The notes: a model not told the origin generated them from the sequence alone. A stretch of 64,000 bases of DNA from an uncultured Sedimenticola sp. (GCA_964544655.1 CAZJCM010000003.1:9317-73316); one strand, 5' to 3'; shown: positions 34,648 through 38,933, counted from the first letter of the stretch. Made by a program: numbers and translations.

Positions 34648-34741
34648 CAAAGATCCGGGGAAATTCTGCTTGATCTACCGGTAAAAACCGGGCCAAAACC
34701 ACCCGCTGGCTTCGGCGTGGAGACAATCATTCGAGCGTCAG

Positions 34742-34770
34742 ACTATGGCAAAGGGGGGGCCGACGGTCAA
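34742..34770 (-). promoter_or_regulatory. Candidate sigma70 promoter for korAB
   Basis: The minus strand reads TTGACC-17 nt-CATAGT. The spacer contains a C7 run. Prediction by eye only. Confidence 0.3.
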
Positions 34771-34883: not shown

Positions 34884-36131
34884 TCAGCCTCCGATCGCCT
34901 GCTCATATTCATCCATAAAGTGGTATAGGGAGCTGTCCAACACCTTTACCGCCCCATCCAGTAGATGGCAGCGCCCGGTGCCGGGGAGGATCCGGCACAG
35001 ATTGATCAGCGAATCCAGATCCGCCCGCGAACCCTGGCCGGTGTCGATCTTGCCCAGCAGCAGGGAGATATAATAAGTCCCGGTCTTGCAGGGCGGGCAC
35101 TGGCCGCAGGAGGAGGCGGCGAAGAAGTCCACATACTCGGTCACCCGCTTGACGATGCCGGTCCCCTCGGAGACCACGATCATGGCCCCCGTACCCAGGC
35201 TGGAGCGGCGCGCCTGCACCGAATCGAAATCCAGTGGCACGTCCAGATCCTCCGGCGTCAAAATGGTGTTGGAGGGACCACCGGTGAAAACAGCCTTCAA
35301 TTTCTTGCCCAGCAACATGCCGCCACCATACTGCTCGATCAGCTCGGACAACGGGGTACCCATGGGCAGTTCGTAGATCCCAGGGTAGAGCACATCACCG
35401 CTCAGGCAGTAGAGCTTGGTGCCACAGGCATCCCCCCGTCCCAGATTGCGATACCATTCAGCACCGTGACGAACGATATGGGGCAGGTTGGCCAGGGTCT
35501 CCATGTTGTTGATCAGGGTGGGATGGCCGTGCACGCCTGACTCGGCCGGATACGGCGGCTTGCCACGGGGGAAGGGGAATTTACCCTCCACTGACTCGAT
35601 GGCCGCCGTCTCCTCGCCGCCGATGTAATGGCCGGAGCTGGCCATCACCCAATACTCCAGAGGCTGATTCATACATTTACAGACGGCGAAATAGAGATCC
35701 GATTTCTCCCACTCCTCCACCGCCCTGAGCATCACATCCAGGGATTCCTTCTGATCCGGATTGATATAGAAAACGATATGATCGACGCCGGTGGCAAGGG
35801 CGGCGATGGTGGCCCCCTCAATCACCTGGAACGGGGTCTCCTGTAACAGGATGCGGTCCTTGAAGGTTCCCGGCTCATCCTCATTGCCGTTACAGATGAG
35901 ATACTTGGCCACCGCCTCACGCTGCGCCGCCACGAACGCCCACTTCTTATAGGTGGGAAAACCGCTGCCACCCAGCCCACGCAGACCCGCTTCCTGAATC
36001 AGGGAAATCAGGGCTTCCGGCTCCTGCAACGCGATCTGCAGCCCTTCACCACCATGATTGGCCAGCCAGGCATCGAAATCCGCGCCGACCCGGTTGTTTT
36101 CATGCAGCAGAACCTGATTCAGTACCGTCAT
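34884..36131 (-). CDS. NuoF-like NADH-binding FMN/[4Fe-4S] flavoprotein
   Basis: 'GLRGLGGSGFPTYKKW', 'ICNGNEDEPGTFKDR', 'GHYIGGEETAAIESVEGK', 'SCGQCPPCKTG....C'. Starts 12 nt downstream of the FrdA-like gene. Confidence 0.85.
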   Translation of the reverse strand: MTVLNQVLLHENNRVGADFDAWLANHGGEGLQIALQEPEALISLIQEAGLRGLGGSGFPTYKKWAFVAAQREAVAKYLICNGNEDEPGTFKDRILLQETPFQVIEGATIAALATGVDHIVFYINPDQKESLDVMLRAVEEWEKSDLYFAVCKCMNQPLEYWVMASSGHYIGGEETAAIESVEGKFPFPRGKPPYPAESGVHGHPTLINNMETLANLPHIVRHGAEWYRNLGRGDACGTKLYCLSGDVLYPGIYELPMGTPLSELIEQYGGGMLLGKKLKAVFTGGPSNTILTPEDLDVPLDFDSVQARRSSLGTGAMIVVSEGTGIVKRVTEYVDFFAASSCGQCPPCKTGTYYISLLLGKIDTGQGSRADLDSLINLCRILPGTGRCHLLDGAVKVLDSSLYHFMDEYEQAIGG

Positions 36132-36143
36132 GCCGTCGCTTCC

Positions 36144-37766
36144 TCAGTTTTTACGCAGACCATCATAATCAGTGTCGTTCTCGAACTTGGCACACTCGGG
36201 AAACAACATGGGGCCCTTCAGCGCCATCGGCATATCAGCCAGGGTCAGCTCCCGCCTCAGGTTGCTGATATGCTCCAGTAAAATCTTCTTCGGCCCCCGC
36301 CGATGGCTGTTCTCCGCCGCATGGGCGCCGGCCCGGCGACCAAAGCTGATGATCTCCAGCAGGGCATTGCCCATGATCCTGTTCTTGCCATGAATTCCCC
36401 CGCTCACCTCCCCTACACAATAGAGACCGGGCACGCTGGAGAGGGCATTTTCATCGATCACTACACCACCGTTCTGGTAATGCAGCGTGGGATAGATCAA
36501 CAGGGGTGTGGTATAGAGGTCGGTATTACAGCGCTTGCCCAGCTGCACCAGCTTGGGAAAACGTGCATTCAGGATTCCGGGGTTGCGCAATTCCAGCCCC
36601 GGCGTGTCCAGCCATACCCCCACCGCATCGTCATTGACCCGCACTCCCCGCCCCTCGGTGCACTCGCGCAGAATGGCGGAGGAGACATGATCACGGCTCT
36701 TCAACTCGTCGACGAAACGCTCTCCCATGGCATTCAGCAGGTAGGCGCCGGCGGAACGCACACCCTCCGTGATCAGGGTCCCCGCCAAGTGCTGGGGATG
36801 GGCCAGGCCGGATGGATGATACTGAAACGAGTCCAGATCACGCAGCCGCGCCCCCAGCCGGTAGGCCATCACCAGCCCGTCACCAGTGGCGCCAAAATGG
36901 TTGGAAGTGGGGAAGTCGTTGATATGGACCCGCCCGATACCACCGGTGGCGATGATCACCGACTTCGCCTTGACCAGGGTGTAGCGGCAGTTTTTCAGTG
37001 AAAAGATCACTGCGCCACCACAGTGCCCCACATCATCGGAGAGCAGTTCCACCGCCGGACTGTAATCCAGCACCTCCACCCTGCTGTTGCTGACCGATTC
37101 ACGCAACACCCGCATCATCTCCAGGCCGGTGTAGTCGCGGTAATAGGCCACCCGGTTGGCGCTGGTGCCACCCGCACGGCGCAGCAGGATATCGCCGAAT
37201 TTATCCAGATCGAACTGCATCCCCTGCTGAATCAGCCAGCGGATCACGTCCGGGCCATCCATCACCATGCGCGTCACCAGCTTGCGATCCGCATGGTAGT
37301 GGCCGGCACGCAACGTATCATCCAGATGGGCCCGCGGCGTGTCTTCCCGCTCGATAGAAGCCTGAATTCCCCCCTCCGCCATGACCGTATTGCTGTCCCC
37401 CAGGCGCAGTTTGGTGACCAGCATCACCCGTGCGCCGGCCTTGGCGGCGACCAGGGCAGCGGCACAACCGGCGCCGCCCCCGCCGATCACCAGCACATCG
37501 GTCTCCTGCACCGGCGCCGCAGCCAGATCGGCCTCGTCGATGCGGGCATCGGCCTGCAACAGATCGGCCAGCTGGCGGTGGCACTTGTCCCCCTTGTTTG
37601 GCCCGACCTTCAGGGTGGTGATGGAGCCGTCGTAAAAATCCGGATGAAATTCGTGAAGCAGGGATTCCGGCGACAACGCCTCTTCTGCCGGGGGACGCTC
37701 AGCGAGCGGCTGATACAGAGTTAACGCCTCAGCGTAAGGGATGCCTCTGGACATGGGATTTACCAA
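36144..37766 (-). CDS. Fumarate reductase/succinate dehydrogenase-family FAD flavoprotein (soluble type, NadB/TfrA-like)
   Basis: 'DVLVIGGGGAGCAAAL', 'DSNTVMAEGGIQA', 'FQYHPSG', 'GLYCVGEVSGGIHGKNR'. About 85 aa N-terminal extension. The track start is a TTG; an ATG at 37754 is the alternative. Confidence 0.8.
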   Translation of the reverse strand: MVNPMSRGIPYAEALTLYQPLAERPPAEEALSPESLLHEFHPDFYDGSITTLKVGPNKGDKCHRQLADLLQADARIDEADLAAAPVQETDVLVIGGGGAGCAAALVAAKAGARVMLVTKLRLGDSNTVMAEGGIQASIEREDTPRAHLDDTLRAGHYHADRKLVTRMVMDGPDVIRWLIQQGMQFDLDKFGDILLRRAGGTSANRVAYYRDYTGLEMMRVLRESVSNSRVEVLDYSPAVELLSDDVGHCGGAVIFSLKNCRYTLVKAKSVIIATGGIGRVHINDFPTSNHFGATGDGLVMAYRLGARLRDLDSFQYHPSGLAHPQHLAGTLITEGVRSAGAYLLNAMGERFVDELKSRDHVSSAILRECTEGRGVRVNDDAVGVWLDTPGLELRNPGILNARFPKLVQLGKRCNTDLYTTPLLIYPTLHYQNGGVVIDENALSSVPGLYCVGEVSGGIHGKNRIMGNALLEIISFGRRAGAHAAENSHRRGPKKILLEHISNLRRELTLADMPMALKGPMLFPECAKFENDTDYDGLRKN

Positions 37767-37804
37767 TTGGGTATCACTGGATGGGAAGCAGACACGATGA
37801 CACG

Positions 37805-38431
37805 CTACTCCATGATCTGGAGCTCGCCCCGGCGCAGCTTTTCCAGGCGATTGATGAGATTGGACGGCCTGGTGTGAAAATAGGCGGTCACCCGCCGGGC
37901 AAAGATACCCACATGATTGGGGGCAATGAATTCAGGGCAGGCGGTCATGCAGAAATTGCACATCACGCACTCGACGAACAACTCTCCGGCCTCGCGAAAG
38001 CGCCCCTTGCAGGCCAGCTCGACGCCCTTTTCCACATCGATACCCTTGGGGCATGATGCGGTGCAGCCAGAGCAGTGGCGGCAATGATCGGCTTCCGGGA
38101 AGATACGACTGAACTGGGCCTGCACCTCCCAGGAGTTGCTGATCTCGGTCAGCTCATAGGTATGGTGGGTAGGGGTTGGAAAGACCAGGAAACTGACTTC
38201 CATCCCCTCTTCGATCAGGGTCTGGCAGCCCAATTCCATGGTCACTTCCGCCGTGCCGGCCCGGCGCACCATGATCCGGCAGGAACCACACACCCCCTCC
38301 AGGCAACCCACGCTCTTGACCCGGGGATAGCCGGCATGCCACAAGGCCTGGATGGTGGAAAGACCTGCAGGTGCCGTTATCTCTTTTCCATCGATGGTGA
38401 CATTGATCTGTTGTTCGCTTTTCGTACTCAT
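37805..38431 (-). CDS. SdhB/FrdB-like iron-sulfur subunit ([2Fe-2S] plus two Cys clusters)
   Basis: 'CLEGVCGSCRIMV', 'CRHCSGCTASCP', 'CVMCNFCMTACP'. Confidence 0.8.
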   Translation of the reverse strand: MSTKSEQQINVTIDGKEITAPAGLSTIQALWHAGYPRVKSVGCLEGVCGSCRIMVRRAGTAEVTMELGCQTLIEEGMEVSFLVFPTPTHHTYELTEISNSWEVQAQFSRIFPEADHCRHCSGCTASCPKGIDVEKGVELACKGRFREAGELFVECVMCNFCMTACPEFIAPNHVGIFARRVTAYFHTRPSNLINRLEKLRRGELQIME

Positions 38432-38933
38432 GCTCCCTCTGTCGGCGTGCGCCAGCGATCCTATGCCGTTGTCATGGTCAGGCTCACCTGGATATCCGGG
38501 CCATGGAGACCGGCTTTTCGCCAGCGGAATATGCAGGATGGCTCTGTCTGCGGGGCCATCTTTGCAGCCCTTGCAGCCTGAAAAAGGCCCGGCGAGAGGG
38601 CATGATTTTCCCCCCTGAACGGGCCATTGTCCAGGGCAGACCCCGAAGGATGGAAATAATCACTGCAAAAACAAAATGATACGCGATAGCACAACCCCTG
38701 CCAAAAAAGTGGATTAACGGGCACACAAAAAAAAACGCACTTCGACACCTCCCGATTGACCGCTGTTGAAAGGGCGCAAAGATCGCCCACCGCCCACAGC
38801 CCGGCCGCCCTTCCTCATCGACCGTCGCGCATCCATGCAGCATCTATGTAATAGAGCACTAGCACCCATCAGGGGATATTGATTATGATTGACCGGTGTC
38901 CGACCCGGGAACCTGCAACGAGGAAACAGAAGA

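What the first reader, a model, noticed from the sequence alone, without database searches (positions are those of the whole stretch)
34884..38431. Anchor-less FrdB-FrdA-NuoF gene trio: candidate soluble NADH-dependent fumarate reductase
Three co-directional genes encode an SdhB/FrdB-like Fe-S protein, a soluble-type fumarate reductase flavoprotein and a NuoF-like NADH/FMN/[4Fe-4S] subunit; the FrdA-like and NuoF-like genes are separated by a 12-nt gap. No membrane-anchor (FrdC/D, SdhC/D) gene is adjacent.

A NuoF module attached to a fumarate reductase core would give direct NADH:fumarate oxidoreduction. The only precedent I know is the soluble NADH-dependent FRD of Hydrogenobacter thermophilus, whose genes are dispersed rather than clustered. 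A compact three-gene version in a proteobacterial rTCA locus would be a distinct solution.

Fumarate reduction by NADH is strongly exergonic. It could also be the driving half of an electron-bifurcating ferredoxin reduction for the neighbouring KorAB. That last idea is pure speculation.
Basis: partly seen in the sequence, partly recalled or inferred. Interest (0 to 1): 0.62.

Follow-up and report, generated by a model that had tools for sequence, protein, structure and literature searches.

The report
NuoF-coupled soluble fumarate reductase cassette
Three adjacent genes most likely encode a membrane-free enzyme that uses NADH to turn fumarate into succinate; the same cassette is found in many bacteria, and I found no study of it.

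Summary
On the minus strand lie a 208-aa Fe-S protein (37805-38431), a 540-aa flavoprotein (36144-37766) and a 415-aa NuoF-like protein (34884-36131). The gaps are 38 and 12 nt. They sit between a divergent aconitase gene and korAB.

- **Fe-S protein.** It is collinear with E. coli FrdB (hhalign probability 97%) but has Cys ligands for one [2Fe-2S] and two [4Fe-4S] clusters.
- **Flavoprotein.** It keeps every fumarate-binding and catalytic residue of FrdA/SdhA. It lacks the histidine for covalent FAD, the NadB glutamate and the C-terminal domain, and it has a conserved ~85-aa N-terminal extension.
- **NuoF-like protein.** It keeps the FMN/NADH motifs and the N3 cysteines, but no NuoE-like gene accompanies it.

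The three-gene order is the same in all 80 related genome loci. They span Gamma-, Alpha- and Betaproteobacteria and Anaerolineae, so the cassette is not specific to rTCA loci.

A sister Fe-S/flavoprotein pair in anaerobes replaces NuoF with Flx-Hdr. It sits beside fumarase or aspartase genes and C4-dicarboxylate transporter genes, which points to fumarate as the substrate.

Best reading: a soluble three-subunit NADH:fumarate oxidoreductase (confidence about 0.65). Nothing supports electron bifurcation. No biochemistry exists, and I found no description of this NuoF-linked form.

The parts
37805..38431 (-). Fe-S subunit (208 aa), FrdB-like. Predicted to bind one [2Fe-2S] cluster (C43, C48, C51, C69) and two [4Fe-4S] clusters (C117/120/123/127 and C155/158/161/165). 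A GAGGGAG Shine-Dalgarno sequence precedes the ATG.
   Evidence: Searches give the ORF and domains. One search shows all 12 Cys invariant in 23 homologues; hhalign against E. coli FrdB gives 97.1% probability, collinear. NuoG N-terminus 0.8%. One search shows the Shine-Dalgarno sequence.
36144..37766 (-). Flavoprotein subunit (540 aa from the TTG; the likely true start is the ATG at 37754). It has a FrdA/SdhA-type FAD and capping domain. FAD is predicted to be non-covalent (Asn126 replaces the His). Catalytic residues H317, T333-E334, R358, H429 and R463 are present. It has a conserved ~85-aa N-terminal extension and no C-terminal helical domain.
   Evidence: domains, and scores below the cut-offs of TfrA, NadB and SdhA/FrdA; residue mapping against 1NEK and 5KXJ; conservation; the model's best structural matches are E. 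coli FrdA and SdhA; clade separate from E. coli SdhA, FrdA and NadB.
34884..36131 (-). NuoF-like NADH/FMN/[4Fe-4S] subunit (415 aa), the presumed electron-input module. It starts 12 nt after the flavoprotein stop codon.
   Evidence: aligns to E. coli NuoF residues 23-420 with E = 1e-87. GGxGF, NxxExEPGTxKD, GEE(T/S)A and NNxET motifs and C342/C345/C348/C388 are invariant in 22 homologues.
38676..38704 (-). Promoter-like site (TTGGCA-17-TATCAT, 10 of 12 matches) about 245 nt upstream of the Fe-S gene, in the 457-bp divergent region shared with the aconitase gene.
   Evidence: This is a consensus match only; 4 sites were found against 2.1 expected.
34692..34716 (-). Terminator-like hairpin with a T-rich tail between the NuoF-like stop codon and korA. 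With the promoter-like site at 34742-34770, it suggests the trio and korAB are separate transcription units.
   Evidence: pattern scan, not above chance; in tubeworm-symbiont RNA assemblies korAB contigs show about 5-30 times the assembler depth of the trio contigs. Contig depth is a poor measure of expression.

Best explanation
The three genes most likely encode a cytoplasmic heterotrimeric NADH:fumarate oxidoreductase.

Inferred electron path:
1. NADH gives a hydride to FMN in the NuoF-like subunit.
2. Electrons leave one at a time through its N3-type [4Fe-4S] cluster.
3. They cross the FrdB-like subunit: distal [4Fe-4S], which replaces the [3Fe-4S] quinol-side cluster of membrane enzymes, then the medial [4Fe-4S], then the [2Fe-2S].
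4. They reach non-covalently bound FAD in the FrdA-like subunit, where fumarate is reduced to succinate.

The potential gap is about 350 mV and FAD is non-covalent, so the enzyme should work in practice only in the reductive direction.

In this Sedimenticola-like vent bacterium the enzyme would supply the fumarate-to-succinate step feeding the neighbouring KorAB (2-oxoglutarate:ferredoxin oxidoreductase) in a reductive or branched TCA cycle. In aerobic Burkholderiales it more likely serves as an NADH-reoxidising valve, paired with a DASS dicarboxylate carrier.

Shown here: the domain and residue content, the cofactor ligands, the strict three-gene conservation, co-assembly of the three genes in RNA data, and the gene contexts. 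Inferred: that the subunits assemble, the order of the clusters, the substrate and the physiological roles.
For: 1. The active site is intact and invariant. H317, E334, R358 (proton donor) and H429 are invariant in 23 family members. R463 is conserved in all but one frameshifted copy, and the residue at position 333 is Thr or Ser. The covalent-FAD His is Asn in all members, as expected for a reductive-only enzyme (established knowledge from FrdA His44 mutants).
2. The Fe-S subunit is homologous to and collinear with FrdB. All 12 cluster Cys are invariant.
3. The NuoF-like subunit keeps its FMN and NADH motifs and the four N3 Cys.
4. The Fe-S/flavoprotein/NuoF order is the same in all 80 genome loci across at least four classes. 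Flanking genes vary. Sequence similarity to another Cupriavidus strain starts and stops close to the ends of the trio, at L054 7184-10944.
5. The sister clade is 46% and 30% identical for the two subunits, has the same N-terminal extension, and joins this family with 100/99 support. In it NuoF is replaced by hdrBCA-flxDCBA in 6 of 7 contexts.
6. That sister cluster carries fumarate-forming enzymes and C4-dicarboxylate carriers. Class I fumarase occurs in C. estertheticum and Marinisporobacter. Aspartate ammonia-lyase occurs in Natranaerobius (707 bits against a cut-off of 510). A Lyase_1 gene occurs in Acetoanaerobium. The carriers are DcuC, DcuA/B, DASS and SDF.
7. The same operon architecture is the highly expressed 'succinate operon' of the succinate producer P. 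thermosuccinogenes (PMC7282089).
8. A DASS transporter gene lies within 8 kb in 28 Burkholderiales loci, directly upstream and divergent in about 19.
9. In the window the trio sits in a TCA cluster: aconitase, pntAB, IDH, ACL-like genes, mdh, gltA and korAB.
10. RNA-derived contigs from tubeworm transcriptomes span the Fe-S/flavoprotein/NuoF junctions, for example L011 7378-10000. A compost metatranscriptome contig begins 58 nt before the Fe-S gene and covers the trio.
Against: - No member of the NuoF-linked family has been purified or assayed. No knockout data were found.
- Every NuoF homologue of known structure matched belongs to a complex that, to my knowledge, also contains a NuoE-like partner or domain. 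None is encoded here, so stable assembly and the N3-to-FrdB-like contact are untested.
- Foldseek of the Fe-S model found only weak NuoG/StnC-type N-terminal matches (TM about 0.26) and no FrdB.
- All three proteins score below the curated cut-offs of the named families.
- Contig depth of the trio in symbiont RNA assemblies is well below that of korAB.
- The literature says tubeworm symbionts also have tfrAB/Flx-Hdr and a QFR/SQR (PMC6315080, PMC11636981), so the trio need not be the rTCA fumarate reductase.
- Whether this genome has sdhCDAB, frdABCD or tfrAB elsewhere could not be checked.
Confidence: 0.65

Rival explanations
1. The trio is an electron-bifurcating enzyme. Exergonic fumarate reduction by NADH would drive reduction of ferredoxin for the neighbouring KorAB.
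For: - The reaction has ample free energy (about -67 kJ/mol, from textbook potentials).
- The sister Fe-S/flavoprotein pair is wired to Flx-Hdr, a proposed bifurcating module (PMC6315080, PMC7282089).
- korAB and an Rnf-linked operon lie downstream in this window.
Against: - The NuoF-like subunit has only FMN and one [4Fe-4S] cluster. There is no NuoE/HydC-like gene, no extra ferredoxin domains and no second low-potential exit path. To my knowledge, bifurcating NuoF-type enzymes such as HydABC and NfnABC have these features.
- The cassette occurs unchanged in about 50 aerobic Burkholderiales, where no korAB was seen in the loci examined.
- korAB appears to be a separate transcription unit.
Confidence: 0.08
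2. The flavoprotein acts on a substrate other than fumarate, with NuoF linking it to NAD(H). Candidates are L-aspartate (as in NadB), another C4/C5 dicarboxylate, or another 2-enoate.
For: - Database annotations often call these proteins 'L-aspartate oxidase'.
- The NadB model scores nearly as well as the TfrA and SdhA/FrdA models: 302, 328 and 296 bits.
- FAD_binding_2 enzymes are known with acrylate, cinnamate and urocanate specificity (titles and abstracts listed).
- One Bacillota locus pairs the core with UbiD/UbiX and CoA-transferases.
Against: - The NadB-specific Glu121 is Ala here.
- The family forms a clade apart from E. coli NadB.
- All dicarboxylate-binding and catalytic residues of FrdA/SdhA are invariant.
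- Neighbours of the sister clade make fumarate (fumarase, aspartase) and carry C4-dicarboxylates.
- As far as I know, NadB is a single-subunit enzyme with no Fe-S partner.
Confidence: 0.12
3. The Fe-S/flavoprotein pair is a peripheral module that docks onto a membrane anchor or another complex encoded elsewhere. The NuoF-like protein would serve a different partner.
For: - The genome outside the window could not be searched.
- Membrane anchors are too divergent for tblastn to exclude.
- Tubeworm-symbiont loci carry a 117-aa membrane ORF between the NuoF-like gene and korA.
Against: - The NuoF-like gene is adjacent, on the same strand and in the same order in every locus where the contig extends past the flavoprotein gene. 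Here the gap is 12 nt.
- The quinol-side [3Fe-4S] site is converted to a four-Cys site.
- No conserved membrane protein accompanies the trio. The 117-aa ORF is on the opposite strand and occurs only in tubeworm symbionts.
Confidence: 0.05

Closest known systems
Flx-Hdr-linked two-subunit fumarate reductase. Examples are the 'succinate operon' of Pseudoclostridium thermosuccinogenes (PMC7282089; preprint 10.20944/preprints201912.0288.v1) and the pairs examined here in Ilyobacter, Natranaerobius and Clostridium estertheticum. The tubeworm-symbiont 'tfrAB' genes next to flxABCD-hdrABC have the same arrangement (PMC6315080).
   Same: - The Fe-S/flavoprotein core is the same: 46% and 30% identity to the Ilyobacter pair.
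- Both have the same N-terminal extension, Asn in place of the covalent-FAD His, and the same 12 cluster Cys.
- The two types form a joint clade with 100/99 support.
- Both are anchor-less and presumed to take electrons from NADH.
   Different: - Electron input there is a seven-gene Flx-Hdr module, proposed to bifurcate. Here it is a single NuoF-like subunit.
- I did not compare sequences from P. thermosuccinogenes or from the tubeworm tfrAB genes directly. That link rests on identical operon architecture.
- Neither form has published biochemistry that I could find.
E. coli quinol:fumarate reductase FrdABCD and succinate dehydrogenase (complex II)
   Same: - The flavoprotein fold and all catalytic residues match; the best Foldseek hits are 1KF6_A and 1NEK_A.
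- The Fe-S subunit is collinear with FrdB.
   Different: - No FrdC/D anchor and no quinol site.
- FAD is not covalent.
- The flavoprotein has no C-terminal helical domain.
- The third cluster site has four Cys, so [4Fe-4S] is predicted instead of [3Fe-4S].
- The flavoprotein has an extra N-terminal domain.
- The electron donor is NADH through a NuoF-like subunit.
Soluble NADH-dependent fumarate reductase of Hydrogenobacter thermophilus (FrdABCDE; Miura et al. 2008, cited in PMC13147460)
   Same: Both are cytoplasmic and NADH-dependent, are irreversible in practice, and act in an rTCA context.
   Different: - That enzyme has five subunits (PMC13147460). From memory, its NADH-binding part is not NuoF-like.
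- The original paper was not available and no sequence comparison was made here.
Thiol:fumarate reductase TfrAB of Methanothermobacter
   Same: - TfrA is the best-scoring NCBIfam model for the flavoprotein (328 bits).
- Both are anchor-less and cytoplasmic.
   Different: - The score is far below the 718-bit cut-off.
- By my recollection TfrB carries a C-terminal HdrB-like CCG domain that oxidises CoM-SH and CoB-SH. The 208-aa Fe-S protein here has none.
NADH-dehydrogenase module of complex I (NuoEF) and HoxFU-type diaphorases
   Same: The NuoF-like subunit aligns end to end with E. coli NuoF and keeps the FMN, NADH and N3 ligands.
   Different: - There is no NuoE-like partner.
- The downstream Fe-S carrier is FrdB-like, not NuoG/HoxU-like.
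- The score is below the NuoF equivalog cut-off: 394 against 559 bits.
L-aspartate oxidase NadB
   Same: Both have non-covalent FAD and a similar length. Database annotators often give these proteins this name.
   Different: - The Glu121 equivalent is Ala.
- The score is below the NadB cut-off: 302 against 453 bits.
- The family is phylogenetically separate from E. coli NadB.
- It has obligatory Fe-S and NuoF-like partner genes.

Membership tests
Complex II-type QFR/SQR (FrdABCD, SdhCDAB) | Flavoprotein with a histidine that binds FAD covalently | tested here: not met
   The His45 (SdhA) position is Asn126, invariant in 23 homologues.
Complex II-type QFR/SQR (FrdABCD, SdhCDAB) | Fumarate/succinate-binding and catalytic residues (His, Thr-Glu, Arg proton donor, His, Arg) | tested here: met
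   H317, T333/E334, R358, H429 and R463 align with SdhA H242, T254/E255, R286, H354 and R399. H317, E334, R358 and H429 are invariant and R463 nearly so.
Complex II-type QFR/SQR (FrdABCD, SdhCDAB) | C-terminal helical domain of the flavoprotein (Pfam Succ_DH_flav_C) | tested here: not met
   There is no PF02910 hit. Homology to SdhA ends near residue 493 of 540.
Complex II-type QFR/SQR (FrdABCD, SdhCDAB) | Fe-S subunit with [2Fe-2S], [4Fe-4S] and [3Fe-4S] clusters | tested here: inconclusive
   The protein is collinear with FrdB, but the third motif has four Cys (CxxCxxCxxxCP), so a [4Fe-4S] cluster is predicted. It scores below the SdhB model cut-offs.
Complex II-type QFR/SQR (FrdABCD, SdhCDAB) | Membrane anchor subunit(s) encoded with the A and B subunits | tested here: not met
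   The neighbours are aconitase and korA. tblastn found no SdhC/D or FrdC/D hit in the window or in 84 loci. The rest of the genome was not searchable.
Thiol:fumarate reductase TfrAB | TfrA equivalog score, and a TfrB with a CCG (HdrB-like) domain | tested here: not met
   NF004900 scores 328 bits against a cut-off of 718. The Fe-S protein has no CCG domain, and NF004898 scores 18 bits against 385.
L-aspartate oxidase NadB | NadB equivalog score and the catalytic Glu121 | tested here: not met
   TIGR00551 scores 302 bits against a cut-off of 453. Glu121 aligns with Ala. The family lies outside the E. coli NadB branch.
Flx-Hdr-linked anchor-less fumarate reductase core (Fe-S plus flavoprotein pair) | Homologous Fe-S/flavoprotein pair with the N-terminal extension, Asn at the covalent-FAD site and 12 conserved Cys | tested here: met
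   Identity to the Ilyobacter pair is 46% and 30%. The joint clade has 100/99 support, and the Cys columns are shared.
Flx-Hdr-linked anchor-less fumarate reductase core (Fe-S plus flavoprotein pair) | Adjacent flxABCD-hdrABC genes as the electron-input module | tested here: not met
   No CCG, FlpD or HdrA-type genes flank the trio in the window or in the 80 loci. A NuoF-like gene takes that place.
NuoF / Nqo1 (51-kDa subunit of complex I) | FMN and NADH binding motifs and the four Cys of cluster N3 | tested here: met
   The motifs and C342/345/348/388 are invariant. The protein aligns with E. coli NuoF residues 23-420.
NuoF / Nqo1 (51-kDa subunit of complex I) | NuoF equivalog score, and a NuoE partner within a nuo operon | tested here: not met
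   TIGR01959 scores 394 bits against a cut-off of 559. No NuoE-like gene is present in the window or the loci.
Bfu-type bifurcating enzymes (HydABC, NfnABC/StnABC) | NuoF-like subunit with added Fe-S domains, plus a NuoE-like subunit | tested here: not met
   The 415-aa protein has only the Complex1_51K, SLBB and NADH_4Fe-4S domains. There is no NuoE-like gene.
H. thermophilus NADH-dependent fumarate reductase FrdABCDE | Five-subunit composition and close similarity of the A subunit | not tested
   No H. thermophilus sequence was at hand and the original paper is not held. The composition is taken from PMC13147460.

The most novel reading that the evidence does not exclude
The NuoF-like subunit, working without any NuoE partner, feeds a FrdB/FrdA-type core. 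Together with the adjacent KorAB and Rnf-linked proteins it would form a machine that couples NADH-driven fumarate reduction to ferredoxin reduction. That would be a new, minimal kind of bifurcating or energy-coupled module driving the reductive TCA cycle in sulfur-oxidising Gammaproteobacteria.
Probability: 0.08. Interest if true: 0.85.

Novelty: new variant of a known kind. Interest (0 to 1): 0.6.

Why it matters
- **An open question becomes testable.** A 2026 survey of rTCA and roTCA autotrophs (PMC13147460) concludes that several lineages must use as yet unknown fumarate reductases. Which enzyme reduces fumarate in gammaproteobacterial rTCA organisms and tubeworm symbionts is also unsettled. 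There, tfrAB does not follow the expression of the rest of the cluster (PMC11636981). This cassette is a concrete third candidate.
- **Annotation.** Databases label these proteins 'L-aspartate oxidase', 'FAD-binding protein' or 'NADH-ubiquinone oxidoreductase-F domain protein'. If the reading is right, pathway reconstructions miss a fumarate reductase in many genomes.
- **Mechanism.** It would be a NuoF homologue working without NuoE and joined to a complex-II-type core. It would also show that one fumarate reductase core can take two alternative electron-input modules, NuoF or Flx-Hdr.
- **Tractability.** The cassette is present in cultured strains such as Cupriavidus metallidurans CH34, Cupriavidus necator A5-1, Paraburkholderia species and Thiorhodococcus minor DSM 11518. 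A compact, irreversible NADH:fumarate reductase could also be useful for succinate production.

Tried and rejected
- **Own genome.** Whether other fumarate reductases exist in this organism stays open.
- **Foldseek on the Fe-S model** (pLDDT 80, pTM 0.55). It gave only weak matches (TM about 0.26) to NuoG/StnC-type N-termini and none to FrdB. I set this aside in favour of the collinear profile match to FrdB and the 0.8% probability for NuoG.
- **hhalign against E. coli SdhB.** It matched only one motif, with 28% probability.
- **RNA runs for the window itself.** None exist; the only holder is the source vent metagenome.
- **Cupriavidus 'RNA' runs.** They produced contigs of 12 kb and longer, which look like DNA, so they say nothing about expression.
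- **Supplements of the Riftia co-expression paper.** Nothing recognisable as the trio was found.
- **Papers not held.** The H. thermophilus enzyme paper and the 2019 preprint on the Flx-Hdr fumarate reductase could not be read.
- **Neighbours of the trio** outside the TCA and DASS contexts. They were unrelated: GGDEF, integrase, ABC exporter, endonuclease and cytochrome c genes.
- **Extra metal site.** Four Cys of the flavoprotein are specific to the NuoF type (C62, C101, C249, C450). I considered a metal site and rejected it as a claim, because the sister clade has V/A/A/V there, which suggests buried small residues.
- **The 119-codon ORF at 38484-38843.** It has no family hit and low GC3, so I treat it as non-coding.

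Full report
**What is in the sequence**

Three co-directional minus-strand ORFs lie at 38431-37805 (208 aa), 37766-36144 (540 aa) and 36131-34884 (415 aa). The gaps between them are 38 nt and 12 nt. Homologues of the middle protein begin at its fifth codon, so its start is probably the ATG at 37754.

Upstream, across a 457-bp divergent region, lies an aconitase gene followed by pntAB. Downstream, after 233 nt, come korA and korB and then an Rnf-linked operon. Earlier notes of this scan described that operon.

The window is about 60% G+C. Its best protein matches are Sedimenticola MAGs (89-90% identity). The only public run that holds the stretch is a hydrothermal-vent metagenome.

**The flavoprotein**

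Pfam finds FAD_binding_2 over residues 90-469 and no Succ_DH_flav_C domain. The best NCBIfam models all fall far below their cut-offs:

| Model | Score (bits) | Cut-off (bits) |
|---|---|---|
| TfrA | 328 | 718 |
| NadB | 302 | 453 |
| SdhA/FrdA | 296 | 567 |

Alignment to solved structures places every residue that binds and reduces fumarate:
- H317 in QYHPSG
- T333-E334
- R358, the proton donor
- H429
- R463

In a 23-sequence alignment H317, E334, R358 and H429 are invariant. R463 is conserved in all but one frameshifted copy, and position 333 is Thr or Ser.

The histidine that carries covalent FAD in SdhA and FrdA is Asn126 in every member. The glutamate that NadB needs for aspartate (Glu121) is Ala.

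Homology to SdhA stops near residue 493, so the C-terminal helical domain is missing. In its place there is a short tail with a conserved PxLFP motif. There is also a conserved ~85-aa N-terminal extension (LLxxYHPD...GxNxG). An AlphaFold model predicts that extension with fair confidence; the whole model has mean pLDDT 71 and pTM 0.76. The closest solved folds are E. coli FrdA (1KF6_A), then SdhA, with NadB lower.

**The Fe-S protein**

Twelve cysteines are invariant in 23 homologues. They form a CX4CX2C...C [2Fe-2S] motif and two complete CxxCxxCxxxCP motifs.

Profile-profile comparison gives these results:

| Compared with | Probability | Note |
|---|---|---|
| E. coli FrdB | 97.1% (E = 7e-11) | collinear through all three cluster sites |
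| E. coli SdhB | 28% | one motif only |
| NuoG N-terminus | 0.8% | |

The site that is [3Fe-4S] in the quinol enzymes has a fourth Cys here. Foldseek on the model was uninformative.

**The NuoF-like protein**

It aligns with E. coli NuoF residues 23-420 (E = 1e-87). The flavin and nucleotide motifs and the four N3 cysteines are invariant across the family.

It has no added Fe-S domains. No NuoE-like gene is present in the window or in any related locus.

**Is the trio a unit?**

A scan of one genome per species returned 80 loci. All of them have Fe-S, flavoprotein and NuoF-like genes in the same order and on the same strand, wherever the contig allows.

Carriers include:
- Sedimenticolaceae, tubeworm symbionts, Chromatiaceae (including cultured Thiorhodococcus minor) and Thiohalomonadaceae, at 69-82% flavoprotein identity
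- Alphaproteobacteria and Anaerolineae MAGs, at about 60%
- about 50 Burkholderiales (Cupriavidus, Paraburkholderia, Caballeronia, Variovorax), at about 57%
- the chromid of C. metallidurans CH34

The flanking genes differ between lineages. korAB follows the trio only in ten Sedimenticolaceae- or Thiohalomonadaceae-type loci. In the tubeworm symbionts the trio sits between gltA and the dimeric korAB. That is the 'second TCA cluster' of Rubin-Blum et al. (PMC6315080), whose text does not mention these three genes.

In Burkholderiales a DASS dicarboxylate carrier gene lies within 8 kb in 28 loci. In about 19 it is directly upstream and divergent.

Similarity between two Cupriavidus strains begins and ends close to the boundaries of the trio.

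RNA-seq assemblies from tubeworm hosts contain single contigs crossing both gene junctions. The assembler depth of korAB contigs is several-fold higher, and the contigs break between the NuoF-like gene and korA. The window also has a terminator-like hairpin and a promoter-like site between the NuoF-like gene and korA. This suggests two transcription units, but the pattern scan is not above chance.

**What is the substrate?**

The strongest contextual evidence comes from a sister clade found through a plasmid search. In Ilyobacter polytropus, a flavoprotein 46% identical and an Fe-S protein 30% identical to those of the trio follow hdrBCA-flxDCBA, and there is no NuoF-like gene. These proteins share the N-terminal extension, the Asn and all 12 cluster Cys.

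The same arrangement occurs in five further genomes:
- Natranaerobius thermophilus, with an aspartate ammonia-lyase (NF008909, 707 bits against a cut-off of 510), DcuC, DcuA/B and DASS genes
- Clostridium estertheticum, with class I fumarase alpha and beta subunits and a DASS gene
- Marinisporobacter, with class I fumarase and malic enzyme
- Acetoanaerobium, with a Lyase_1/FumaraseC gene
- Cetobacterium, with DcuC

This architecture matches the published 'succinate operon' of the succinate-fermenting Pseudoclostridium thermosuccinogenes. That operon consists of fumarate hydratase, Flx-Hdr, a two-gene fumarate reductase and a putative transporter (PMC7282089). I could not compare those sequences directly.

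A maximum-likelihood tree joins the NuoF-type and Flx-Hdr-type flavoproteins in one clade with 100/99 support. E. coli SdhA, FrdA and NadB lie outside on long branches.

Two different fumarate-producing enzymes and four kinds of C4-dicarboxylate carrier sit beside the same core. That makes fumarate much the most likely substrate.

**How it probably works**

This section is inference. NADH reduces FMN in the NuoF-like subunit. Electrons then pass in order through:
1. the N3 cluster
2. the distal [4Fe-4S] cluster of the FrdB-like subunit
3. its medial [4Fe-4S] cluster
4. its [2Fe-2S] cluster
5. FAD in the flavoprotein, where fumarate is reduced

Using textbook potentials (NAD+/NADH -320 mV, fumarate/succinate +30 mV), the reaction releases about 67 kJ/mol. 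Non-covalent FAD is known from FrdA His44 mutants to abolish succinate oxidation while sparing fumarate reduction. The enzyme should therefore be one-way.

In this organism it would fill the fumarate-to-succinate step within a cluster that already holds ACL-like, mdh, aconitase, IDH, KorAB and PntAB genes. In aerobic Burkholderiales a role as a redox valve with a dicarboxylate exchanger is more plausible. That too is inference.

**Rivals**

- *Bifurcation to ferredoxin.* This lacks the usual hardware: no NuoE/HydC partner, no extra clusters and no second exit path. It also sits poorly with the cassette's presence in aerobes, where no korAB was seen in the loci examined.
- *Aspartate or another enoate as substrate.* The missing NadB glutamate, the tree and the gene contexts argue against it.
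- *Docking to an unseen membrane anchor.* The invariable NuoF linkage and the four-Cys distal site argue against it. The rest of the genome could not be searched.

**Comparison with what is known, and novelty**

Soluble NADH-linked fumarate reductases are known:
- the five-subunit enzyme of H. thermophilus
- the single-chain enzyme of Klebsiella
- the yeast enzymes

These are summarised in PMC13147460. The anchor-less Fe-S/flavoprotein core has been proposed as a fumarate reductase in its Flx-Hdr-linked form.

Nine full-text searches found no paper that describes or tests the NuoF-linked three-gene form. Databases name its parts 'L-aspartate oxidase', 'FAD-binding protein' and 'NADH-ubiquinone oxidoreductase-F ... 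domain-containing protein'.

I class it as a new variant of a known kind.

**Limits**

- There is no biochemistry for this family.
- Subunit assembly was not modelled, because no multimer tool was available.
- The tree has only three outgroups.
- RNA evidence comes from assembled contigs of related symbionts, not from this organism.

Noticed in passing
L076:8001-10878 and L078:8001-10706: Two Burkholderiales copies look decayed. In L076 the flavoprotein reading frame breaks near residue 455 and the NuoF-like gene gives two overlapping low-identity hits (36-41%). In L078 the flavoprotein match is truncated and the NuoF-like match is partial (55%). These may be pseudogenes or assembly errors. 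In both loci the flavoprotein and NuoF-like genes are affected.
   Followed up: no
L011:11014-11367 and the same place in L014, L015, L017 and L024: Tubeworm-symbiont loci carry a conserved 117-aa hydrophobic ORF on the opposite strand between the NuoF-like gene and korA. It has no Pfam family and is absent from the window, where that gap is only 233 nt.
   Followed up: partly
L033:10971-11363, L034, L035, L063:4474-4869: A 131-aa tautomerase-superfamily gene (it starts Met-Pro; PF01361) directly follows the NuoF-like gene in four Caballeronia or Paraburkholderia loci.
   Followed up: partly
L092:8217-17834: In a Bacillota MAG the Fe-S/flavoprotein pair has neither NuoF nor Flx-Hdr. It is followed by UbiX-like and UbiD genes, two family-III CoA-transferase genes and succinyl-CoA-synthetase-like genes. 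This may be a third wiring or a different pathway.
   Followed up: no
window:36144-37766 (residues C62, C101, C249, C450): Four cysteines are invariant or nearly so in the NuoF-type flavoproteins. In the Flx-Hdr type they are replaced by V, A, A and V. They are probably buried small residues, but they mark the subfamily cleanly.
   Followed up: partly
L054:5820-7184: RNA-labelled runs of a related Cupriavidus strain contain a contig that skips 1363 bp here. That strain therefore lacks the DASS transporter gene next to the trio, while the trio itself is kept.
   Followed up: no
Burkholderiales loci, e.g. L031:5010-7096 and L034:11913-14239: DUF3300/DUF2950 gene pairs (secreted proteins of unknown function) recur within a few kb of the trio in 15 Burkholderiales loci. 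This may be mere regional synteny.
   Followed up: no
window:38484-38843: A 119-codon minus-strand ORF lies in the divergent region between the Fe-S gene and the aconitase gene. It has no family hit and GC3 of 0.59, against about 0.75 for neighbouring genes. It is probably not a gene.
   Followed up: partly
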